In this document: positions 13,613 to 15,445 of the stretch, in pieces
How the letters are laid out: every line of letters begins with the position of its first letter
How positions within the stretch are numbered: the stretch's first letter is position 1
Assembly (NCBI GenBank): GCA_963813025.1
Contig: CAWEXO010000005.1
Span: forward strand, 128,001 to 192,000
Direction: 5' to 3'
Length of the DNA stretch: 64,000 nt
Source: an uncultured Verrucomicrobiae bacterium
GTDB lineage: Bacteria > Verrucomicrobiota > Verrucomicrobiia > Chthoniobacterales > JAFAMB01
Made by a program: the position numbers and the translations under genes
The notes under the pieces: model-generated
What the model was told of the DNA's origin: nothing
What the model saw: the letters and a program-made list of their open reading frames with translations, nothing else
The model's database searches: none

Positions 13613-13686
13613 ACGAGGCTCAAAGAAAGAGAGCGTCTCGGAACATTCTTGGGCTCTGTGCTGGTAGGGCAGTATCTGAGCAGGTC

Positions 13687-13692
13687 TGGCAA
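13687..13692 (-). promoter_or_regulatory. -35 half (TTGCCA) of circle-junction promoter
   Basis: On circularisation: TTGCCA-17 nt-TATAGC (15349-15354). Confidence 0.7.
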
Positions 13693-13701
13693 GGGAAAAA
13701 G

Positions 13702-14976
13702 TTAAAGTTTTTCACCGATTGGTGAGTGGCGTTTTTTGAGGACTTGGAGGTAGCGCTCTTCGTCATAAGGGGTGCGGTCCTGCCAGAGCCGGAAGATGAC
13801 GCGGATCCATTTAAAGGCCAAGGCGCGCACGGCAGTGTGGTGGGACTTACCGCGGGCCATTTGCTCTTGATAATAGAGCTTGGCCCATTGGGAATAAGGA
13901 ATGGAATGAGCCGCGAATTCGTGGAAGCTCTGGCACAGGAATTTGGAGCGAAAGCGCCGCCGCTGGACGCTTTTGGTTTGGCCGCTGCGCACTTGGACCG
14001 GAGCGATTCCGCTTTTTTTCTGTACCTCCAGGGCTTGGGCAAAAGCCTGCCGATTGGAGCCAAAAGCCACCAACAAGCGCGGGGCTAATTGCGGGCCGGC
14101 TCCGGGCAGACTTTCAAAAATGTGCCGATCGGGATGTTTGGCAAACAGAGTGTGGATGGCTTTGTCAAAAGCCTTGATGGAATCTCGCAGCGGCAACAAT
14201 TGACTGACCAAACACTTGCAACTCAGCACGGAGGGCTCCAGCAGAGAACGATCCTCGGTGACGGTTTGGGCCCGAGCAATCTTTTCCAAGCGCTCCTCGA
14301 TCAAGCTCTGGCTGCGGCTGTGGTGCTGATAAAAAAAAGAGCGCAGGGTCTGGGGCTTGGCTTTTTTTAAACTCTGCAGGGTCGGCCAGCGTTTCAAAAA
14401 ATGCAGCGCCAGAGTGGTGCCCAAATCATCGAGGAGCTCGAGGGCCAGCGGATAGTAGACTTTGAGTAAGCTGGTGAGTTGGTTTTCGCACACCACGGAG
14501 GCCTCGACGGCTTTGCGTCGGTGCTGACCGAGCAAATCCAGTTCCCGCACTACCGGCTCCGGGGGTTGATAAAGCCGGAGCCGATCCCGATGGTGATCAA
14601 CGAGCTCTTCGATCAATTGGCTGTCGCGAGGGTCATCCTTGGCGCCACTAGTAAAGAAGACCTTGCGGTATTCGCTTAAACTCAAAGGATTGAGCGGATA
14701 GAGGTCGATCCAGTCTCCCTGGGTGCGGAGCATTTCAAAGAGTGCTCCCCGATTTTGTTCAAAACCAATGGCCACCCGCCCCTGCGGACCAGCCAAGCTT
14801 TTGAGCTCTTCGAGCCAGGTCCGAACCGAAACGGGATCGGCGCCCAGCTGGAATGTCCGGCATCCTCCCTCCGGACCAGAGCGTTGACAGACAGCGTGTT
14901 CTTTATCAGCCCAATCGATTCCCACGCTGACCATATAATGGGGATCTGGGACCGGAAACGGATTTGATCGGTTCAT
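13702..14976 (-). CDS. IS110-family DEDD transposase/recombinase
   Basis: RuvC-like DEDD residues (VGIDWAD, GFEQ, KDDPRD), LPGAGPQLAPRL, and SGIAP...RSG with candidate catalytic Ser; RBS AAGGAG. Confidence 0.95.
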   Translation of the reverse strand: MNRSNPFPVPDPHYMVSVGIDWADKEHAVCQRSGPEGGCRTFQLGADPVSVRTWLEELKSLAGPQGRVAIGFEQNRGALFEMLRTQGDWIDLYPLNPLSLSEYRKVFFTSGAKDDPRDSQLIEELVDHHRDRLRLYQPPEPVVRELDLLGQHRRKAVEASVVCENQLTSLLKVYYPLALELLDDLGTTLALHFLKRWPTLQSLKKAKPQTLRSFFYQHHSRSQSLIEERLEKIARAQTVTEDRSLLEPSVLSCKCLVSQLLPLRDSIKAFDKAIHTLFAKHPDRHIFESLPGAGPQLAPRLLVAFGSNRQAFAQALEVQKKSGIAPVQVRSGQTKSVQRRRFRSKFLCQSFHEFAAHSIPYSQWAKLYYQEQMARGKSHHTAVRALAFKWIRVIFRLWQDRTPYDEERYLQVLKKRHSPIGEKL

Positions 14977-15000
14977 GCTTGCTCCTTTTTTCTGGTTTTA

Positions 15001-15345
15001 CCCAGCGCGAAAAAAGCCGCTTGGCTTTGGCCGTCCGAAATCCGTATAGTTAAGTCGTCGAAGTGTGAAGTGCTCGACCTCAACTAGAGTATTCGTTGTG
15101 ACGAATCAAAGCGCGACCGGCTGGCTCGAAACTCTGCCCTAAAGATCTCGCGGACCCGAAAATCCTATTCGTAGCCAGCCGGCGCGTCCTTCTTCGCGTG
15201 GGCAGCGCGGGATTTTGCCCGACTGCCCTTGGCAAAGAAAACCCTTTCTTTTTTCCAAAGCTTTCTTTTCTCCGGGCGGAGTTATTCACAAGCTGGAGCT
15301 CCGACCGGTAGGGCCTCCGACCACAGCTTGCTGAATAACTCCGGA
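15001..15345 (-). ncRNA. Putative bridge RNA (target- and donor-binding loops) in the IS110 left end
   Basis: Two stem-internal-loop-stem domains closed by stem 15001-15016/15189-15202; loop segments match the REP target (GGATTTTCG, TAGGGC) and the circle junction (ATACT, CTATAC). Confidence 0.8.
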
Positions 15346-15348
15346 CTT

Positions 15349-15354
15349 GCTATA
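15349..15354 (-). promoter_or_regulatory. -10 half (TATAGC) of circle-junction promoter
   Basis: First six bases of the IS left end; 17 nt from TTGCCA in the circle. Confidence 0.7.
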
Positions 15355-15445
15355 CGAAAATTCACTCGAGCGGCCGAGGCCATGTTGCGAGACACTCCCA
15401 GACCGTATTCCCTCCTTGCTCCTTAGAACTCTGGCTGTCGGCCTG

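What the first reader, a model, noticed from the sequence alone, without database searches (positions are those of the whole stretch)
15042..15141. Apparent single-nucleotide core with product-matching 'handshake' bases
Seen: target (TTTC-G-CCCTA) and donor (TACT-G-TATAG) share only G at the crossover, not an identical dinucleotide. The right target guide extends to TAGGGCAG, whose reverse complement CTGCCCTA is the recombinant junction (donor CT + target GCCCTA). The right donor guide CTATACGG fits the other recombinant junction TCGTATAG with one G-T wobble (it also fits the intact donor with one wobble). Established: IS621 has a 2-nt CT core plus handshake pairs that favour strand exchange. 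Inference: this subfamily may need only a 1-nt (or mismatched CG/TG) core, which would widen programmability.
Basis: partly seen in the sequence, partly recalled or inferred. Interest (0 to 1): 0.8.

Follow-up and report, generated by a model that had tools for sequence, protein, structure and literature searches.

The report
Bridge recombinase with one shared base
This RNA-guided jumping gene joins two DNA sites that share only one base at the crossover instead of the usual two, and its guide RNA appears to be matched to the joined products, a real but modest variation on a known system.

Summary
The stretch holds the two right-hand guides of the bridge RNA of an IS110-group element (minus strand, 13670-15354) with 10 full copies and 1 partial copy in this genome. 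All 11 left junctions read TC-G and 9 of 10 right junctions CT-G; empty targets are a repeat with CG in 129 of 137 sites. Close relatives agree (17 of 17 left, 17 of 18 right), so later mutation is excluded. Homologues most likely place G at core position 9: target CG, donor TG. The differing position 8 is read by the guide of the opposite loop, like a third handshake base. Of 28 hand-curated related guide sets, 5 share only position 9; a sister lineage has TG/TG. A rival register (cut before G, no shared base needed) keeps about 20%: one copy has A on the right, and the target loop is one base long. No circle junction was seen and no activity tested. Cores of about 1-5 nt are already in print; a mismatched core with product-matched guides was not found in my searches. 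The scan noted the same element earlier on another contig of this genome.

The parts
13670..15354 (-). IS110-group element, 1685 bp counting one copy of the shared G (the other G is at 15355)
   Evidence: Ends defined by 10 full copies at 98-100% identity with different flanks and by empty targets
13702..14976 (-). Bridge recombinase, 424 aa; D21, E73, D115, D118 and S331 invariant in 24 of 24 aligned homologues
   Evidence: Pfam DEDD_Tnp_IS110 + Transposase_20; alignment; model pLDDT 87, best fold matches IS621 and ISCro4, 17% identity
14977..15354 (-). Left non-coding end, 378 nt, encoding the predicted bridge RNA
   Evidence: no Rfam match in the window
15112..15188 (-). Target-binding loop (approximate limits), closed by a conserved CGAA/UUCG pairing
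   Evidence: Fold; consensus structure of 38 homologues
15157..15165 (-). Left target guide; reads target positions 1-8 including C8; the base opposite position 9 varies (G, A, U) in relatives with the same target G
15133..15141 (-). Right target guide UAGGG plus C (position 9), A (8), G (7), A (6); positions 9-7 match the incoming donor G, T, C
15024..15112 (-). Donor-binding loop (approximate limits)
   Evidence: Fold; alignment
15081..15089 (-). Left donor guide by homology, with one extra base and one mismatch; ends at about donor position 5-6 and does not reach the core
   Evidence: Alignment column of the conserved guide; pairing is inference
15041..15049 (-). Right donor guide CUAUA plus C (9), G (8), G (7), A (6); pairs 4 of 4 with the incoming target (one wobble), 3 of 4 with its own donor (one wobble)
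15355..15363 (-). Left half of the target repeat with C8 and G9
13664..13669 (-). Right half of the target repeat
13670..13701 (-). Right non-coding end, 32 nt, with a -35-like TTGCCA at 13687-13692 that would lie 17 nt from TATAGC (15349-15354) in the circle
   Evidence: promoter function is inference
15277..15343 (-). Long hairpin at the 5' part of the left end, conserved in close relatives
   Evidence: Fold; sequences

Best explanation
An IS110-group bridge recombinase inserts its circle into an abundant repeat. As in IS621, both top strands are cut 3' of position 9, here G, and positions 6-9 are swapped between the two RNA loops. Target and donor cores are CG and TG. Position 8 no longer acts as a shared core base but as a third handshake base: the target-loop A mismatches the target C and pairs with the incoming donor T, and the donor-loop G goes from a wobble with donor T to a Watson-Crick pair with target C. 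Watson-Crick pairs at positions 6-9 rise from 4 before exchange to 6 after, which should favour insertion and hinder excision. The top-strand product is the one fixed in the genome. Shown: junction and guide sequences and their co-variation. Inferred: circle junction, cut site, RNA expression, and the benefit of the position-8 pairs.
For: Same asymmetry at 11 of 11 left and 10 of 10 right junctions in this genome and 17 of 17 left, 18 of 18 right flanks of close relatives at position 8. Donor spacing, donor-loop length and left target guide align G with the T of CT-core relatives. In a quick tree the clade joins L028 (target CA, donor TA, guides UA and UG) and L149 (TG in both, guides CA and CA) with SH-aLRT 99 (junctions), so the position-9 base and both guide bases change together. 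Among 28 guide sets, 5 differ at position 8: the donor-loop base is Watson-Crick to the incoming target in 5 of 5 and to its own donor in 0 of 5; the target-loop base matches the incoming donor in 3 of 5. Control: in the same register the known position-7 handshake appears in 22 of 25 (target loop) and 20 of 25 (donor loop) sets. In the ISEsa2-like lineage the left junction varies at positions 8-9 (GA 5, GG, AG, AA, TT) while the right reads GA in 9 of 9 loci, which fits a cut 3' of position 9 with the top strand inherited.
Against: Copy C4 has G on the left and A on the right, and remnant L212 has C on the right; a cut 3' of G predicts variation on the left only. The target loop has one base more between position 6 and the closing stem than 27 of the 28 sets. 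In this register the donor-loop position-7 G pairs with its own donor C, a pair that strongly reduced IS621 recombination. The target-loop base at position 8 is substrate-matched in 2 of 5 sets. The table was hand-curated: 37 loci chosen, 4 failed to parse, donor offsets set by hand for 10, and kin are not independent. The careful tree did not finish. No circle junction or RNA was observed.
Confidence: 0.62

Rival explanations
1. Shifted register: both top strands are cut 5' of G. The donor keeps a canonical CT at positions 8-9, the target offers TC, and G is position 10 in both, shared by descent or chance. No shared core base would be needed.
For: The target-loop 3' end aligns without gaps to CT-core relatives as AG-AG-UUUCG, and that AG pairs with donor CT. 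Copy C4 (left G, right A) is what a target with A would give; A occurs there in 2 of 269 repeat copies, against 7 other private changes over 10 copies of about 1.7 kb, roughly 10-20 times likelier than a later mutation by my estimate. L212 has C at the right junction. IS621 recognises T at position 9 through the protein, and donors of this clade all have T just before the shared base.
Against: It needs a donor loop one base shorter and a donor one base shorter than any of the 28 sets. L028 has canonical loop lengths only in the other register. G/G to A/A change in both target and donor has no cause in this model. L136 (TG) and the ISEsa2-like sets (GA) show non-T at position 9 with canonical loop lengths. 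C4 is one event, has a second private G-to-A change, and could be a consensus error; L212 is a remnant without its left end. A 1-nt staggered cut around G would also give C4.
Confidence: 0.22
2. Same register as the best explanation, but the position-8 mismatch is only tolerated. The element moved from a TG/TG ancestor onto an abundant CG repeat; the target-loop A is a relic and the donor-loop G is the family's usual base.
For: L149 has the same target-loop CA with a symmetric TG core. G at donor-loop position 8 is the commonest state. A second L028-type left end has TA instead of CA, so position 8 is loose. 263 of 269 repeats have C, so all-C junctions may reflect supply.
Against: In the TT/AT lineage both guide bases changed away from the CT/CT state of their 66% identical relative L155, each to match the incoming strand. 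The left target guide has C at position 8 throughout the clade.
Confidence: 0.14
3. Ordinary 2-nt core; one flank mutated after insertion in this copy.
For: None beyond the prior that most relatives have identical cores (22 of 28 sets).
Against: All copies and relatives show the same asymmetry, and empty sites have CG.
Confidence: 0.01

Closest known systems
IS621 (E. coli) bridge recombinase and bridge RNA (PMC11208160, PMC11208158, PMC13626964)
   Same: RuvC-like DEDD plus Tnp-serine protein with the same fold; long left end with a two-loop RNA, short right end; repeat target; junction promoter spacing; right guides extended by handshake bases that match the incoming strand.
   Different: 17% identical, 424 against 328 aa. 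Core CG/TG instead of CT/CT, described for IS621 as invariant; G, not T, at position 9, where IS621 is almost invariant; left guides stop short of position 9; the glycine after the catalytic glutamate lies four residues on (E73, G77) against three in IS621 (E60, G63), as in CT-core members of this clade too.
ISCro4 (IS622 of preprint 10.1101/2025.05.14.653916)
   Same: Same fold and loop logic.
   Different: Used with matching CT or GT cores; site pairs were filtered for identical cores.
ISEsa2-like IS110 elements of Enterobacterales plasmids
   Same: About 41% identical protein; homologous RNA scaffold and donor ends.
   Different: Donor core GA with UU guide bases and varied target cores; no study of its core was found (one paper listed, not read).
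ISPpu10 (preprint 10.64898/2026.03.19.712850)
   Same: IS110 element that targets a repeated intergenic element through a bridge RNA.
   Different: CT core on both sides.

Membership tests
IS110 family | DEDD RuvC-like domain plus Tnp domain with catalytic serine | tested here: met
   Pfam PF01548 and PF02371 above cut-off; D21, E73, D115, D118, S331 invariant in 24 sequences; fold match to IS621
IS110 family | Conservative insertion without long terminal inverted repeats | tested here: met
   Flanks rejoin to the empty repeat; longest inverted match between the ends is 5 nt
IS110 family | Circular intermediate with joined ends | tested here: inconclusive
   No junction in the genome, in contigs of 4 runs or in 5 related genomes; contigs cannot show absence. 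17-nt promoter spacing fits
IS110 group (not IS1111 group) | Long left end carrying the RNA, short right end | tested here: met
   378 nt against 32 nt; criterion from PMC11208160
IS621-type bridge RNA system | Two loops whose guides co-vary with target and donor | tested here: met
IS621-type bridge RNA system | Handshake bases matched to the incoming strand at positions 6-7 | tested here: met
   Family: position 7 in 22 of 25 and 20 of 25 sets; this element: target-loop 7 and donor-loop 6 match, donor-loop 7 and target-loop 6 favour the substrate
IS621-type bridge RNA system | Identical dinucleotide core (CT) in target and donor | tested here: not met
   CG against TG in all copies
IS621-type bridge RNA system | Top-strand cut 3' of position 9 | not testable with these tools
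   Indirect evidence mixed: supports in the ISEsa2-like lineage, against in copy C4
IS621-type bridge RNA system | RNA is expressed and bound by the recombinase | not testable with these tools
   No RNA holder listed

The most novel reading that the evidence does not exclude
This clade needs no identical base between target and donor: core bases are read only by the guide of the loop that receives the strand, so positions 6-9 are all handshake positions and any target-donor pair could be programmed. Copy C4, and relatives whose left and right junction cores share no position (L248 AG/GA, L177 TT/GA), would be natural examples.
Probability: 0.25. Interest if true: 0.72.

Novelty: new variant of a known kind. 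Interest (0 to 1): 0.5.

Why it matters
Bridge recombinase tools are limited by a shared CT (less well GT) core; one paper names this limit and calls for mining relaxed orthologues (PMC13396178), and another uses different cores to keep two reactions apart. This clade offers natural TG, GA, CG/TG, CA/TA, TT/AT and CT/GT arrangements on one RNA scaffold. It makes a simple question testable: is core identity required by the chemistry, or only by guide pairing? A mismatch paired only after exchange should also make insertion less reversible. The gain is incremental and unproven until tested.

Tried and rejected
Rfam: no match in the window. Circle or tandem junction: 0 in the genome; no joints in contigs of 4 runs, of which only one covered the element; 4 pattern matches in 5 related genomes, below the reversed-pattern control and unlike the donors. 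No RNA holder listed; not evidence either way. Viral contigs: no relative. The sigma-70 scan cannot see a junction promoter in linear DNA. A hybrid register (target cut before G, donor cut after G) was rejected: it predicts no G on the left and two on the right. A 1-bp target duplication with a donor lacking G was rejected as unlikely: the donor guide has C for G and promoter spacing would fall to 16. A match of GAAUACU to the donor is the conserved scaffold, not the left donor guide. L243 (G missing at the left junction) was dropped because its right end is decayed or error-ridden. L161 is ambiguous (CT/CC or CT/CT with a longer donor); no empty site found. No empty site found for the TT/AT lineage with the one pattern tried in 2 genomes, so its target rests on junctions of L004, L077 and L091. 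L008 may be an off-target insertion. The loop after the catalytic glutamate does not separate CT from non-CT members. The automatic table misplaced several right ends and was replaced. One locus from an unpublished genome was not used. Literature searches and passages of 12 papers showed no report of a natural mismatched core with product-matched guides; subscription papers, ISfinder entries, figures and all supplements were not seen and may hold such cases.

Full report
What is there. The flagged 100 bases lie in the left non-coding end of an insertion sequence on the minus strand (13670-15354). Its 424-aa protein carries both IS110 Pfam domains; the DEDD residues and the serine are invariant in 24 aligned homologues; the predicted model matches IS621 and ISCro4 best, at 17% identity. 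The left end is 378 nt and the right end 32 nt, with no inverted repeat longer than 5 nt, which places it in the IS110 group by the criterion in PMC11208160. The genome holds 10 full copies at 98-100% identity and 1 partial copy. The closest homologues (about 70%) include a Verrucomicrobiota genome of the same family.

The observation. Both flagged motifs are at the stated places. All 11 left junctions read TTTTC-G-TATAG; all 10 right junctions have ACT, followed by G in 9 and A in 1 (copy C4). The target is an abundant repeat: 129 of 137 strict sites have TCG, and of 269 looser sites 263 have C and 266 G at the two positions. Outside this genome, 17 of 17 distinct left flanks end in TCG and 17 of 18 right flanks start with TG, the exception being a remnant with TC; 6 of 7 empty sites in G023 have CG. 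Later mutation of one flank is therefore excluded. The guide matches are only modestly above chance on their own (11, 50 and 169 of 1000 shuffles); their weight comes from homology.

Register. Relatives at 37-47% identity share the RNA scaffold and donor ends. Most have CT on both sides. In them the right donor guide is followed by four bases (positions 9, 8, 7, 6) and a short tail. The window's RNA has the same length there, with C where CT-core members have A, so G takes the place of the core T. The left target guide ends on the target C at the column where CT-core members read C8, and the base after it varies among close relatives, so it is not read. In a quick maximum-likelihood tree of 59 proteins (the careful search did not finish) the window's clade groups with L028 and L149 at SH-aLRT 99. 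L028 has CA on the left and TA on the right, with U in both guides; its empty repeat has CA in 21 of 45 pattern matches. L149-type ends have TG on both sides, with CA in both guides. The shared base and both guide bases thus change together.

Family count. Of 37 hand-picked loci with both ends, 33 parsed and fell into 28 guide sets (L030, L072, L177, L179 failed; donor offsets were set by hand for 10). 22 sets share both core bases (18 CT, 3 GA, 1 TG), 5 share only position 9 (CG/TG, CA/TA, TT/AT, AA/GA, CT/GT), 1 only position 8 (ambiguous). Where position 8 differs, the donor-loop base matches the incoming target in 5 of 5 and the target-loop base matches the incoming donor in 3 of 5. The known position-7 handshake shows in 22 of 25 and 20 of 25 sets, against 1 and 3 for the substrate, which supports the numbering. 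These are related sequences, not independent trials. In ISEsa2-like loci the right junction is GA in 9 of 9 while the left is GA in 5 and GG, AG, AA, TT once each: the left core comes from the target, and identity is loose even at position 9.

Mechanism. From IS621: top strands are cut after position 9, positions 6-9 move to the other loop, and pairs formed after exchange help while pairs formed before exchange hinder (PMC11208158 sections 8, 11, 12; PMC13626964 discussion). Applied here, the target loop pairs W. w W with its target and W W W. with the incoming donor; the donor loop pairs W w W. with its donor and W W w W with the incoming target (positions 9 to 6; W Watson-Crick, w wobble). 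Position 8 behaves as a handshake base. Only top-strand products are seen in natural copies, which fits repair or replication from the top strand; single-strand excision has been proposed for IS621 (preprint 10.64898/2026.08.31.748434, section read). All of this paragraph is inference for this element.

Against. Copy C4 has the variant base on the right, which a cut 3' of G does not explain unless it is a later change or a consensus error; it has one other private change. The target loop is one base longer at its 3' end than in 27 of 28 sets, and without that base it reads AG-AG as in CT-core members, pairing with the donor's CT; L149 shares this extra base. The donor-loop position-7 G pairs with its own donor, which inhibited IS621. 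These keep a register with the cut before G at about 22%. No circle junction or transcript was observed.

What is known. The Durrant preprint describes IS110 cores as about 1-5 nt direct repeats (10.1101/2024.01.24.577089, passages), so a 1-nt repeat is within the published range. Published core changes in IS621 altered target and donor together, at the first base only (PMC11208160, passages). Genome-scale pipelines treat the core as a repeated sequence. Eight library searches and passages or sections of 12 papers showed no natural mismatched core with product-matched guides. No paper was read whole and no supplement was seen.

Verdict. Real, reproducible and shared by a lineage; a new variant of a known system. 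Interest 0.5: useful to people who build bridge recombinase tools and directly testable, but a small step from the IS621 mechanism, with the cut site unresolved.

Noticed in passing
G000 C13:92658, C11:77976, C1:207997: Three of 11 left ends carry a 13-bp tandem duplication of the first bases of the element. The new junction pairs fully with the right donor guide and its four extra bases, so it could come from insertion into the element's own end followed by deletion, or from slippage. L072 has a 12-bp duplication at the like place that does not fit that reading.
   Followed up: partly
G000 copies C13:131609, C11:84546, C11:77965: These three copies share a block of about 20 substitutions in the middle of the coding sequence but have the same guides; contigs of one soil run carry many differences in the same part. 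Suggests two alleles that recombine.
   Followed up: no
window 15356-15363 with 13664-13669, genome-wide: The target is a REP-like repeat with at least 269 copies, often in inverted pairs; only 11 are occupied by this element.
   Followed up: partly
L082 upstream of the coding sequence: An element appears inserted into the left target guide of another copy's RNA gene, which has the same sense as the target: self-targeting.
   Followed up: no
L178, L179, L247-L249, L252: ISEsa2-like elements have UU at both core-reading positions of both loops, able to pair with A or G, and varied purine cores at the left junction.
   Followed up: partly
L074, L161, L084: Further non-CT candidates: a CC donor with GG guide bases (L074, left end missing), an ambiguous CT/CC case (L161), and AU guide bases without junction data (L084).
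   Followed up: partly
window 15305-15314: The loop of the 5' hairpin of the left end holds a 10-base copy of the right half of the target repeat; not conserved in close relatives.
   Followed up: no
G000 C13:19819, C3:83269, C11:73278: Other, distant IS110 recombinases (28-33% identity) in the same genome.
   Followed up: no
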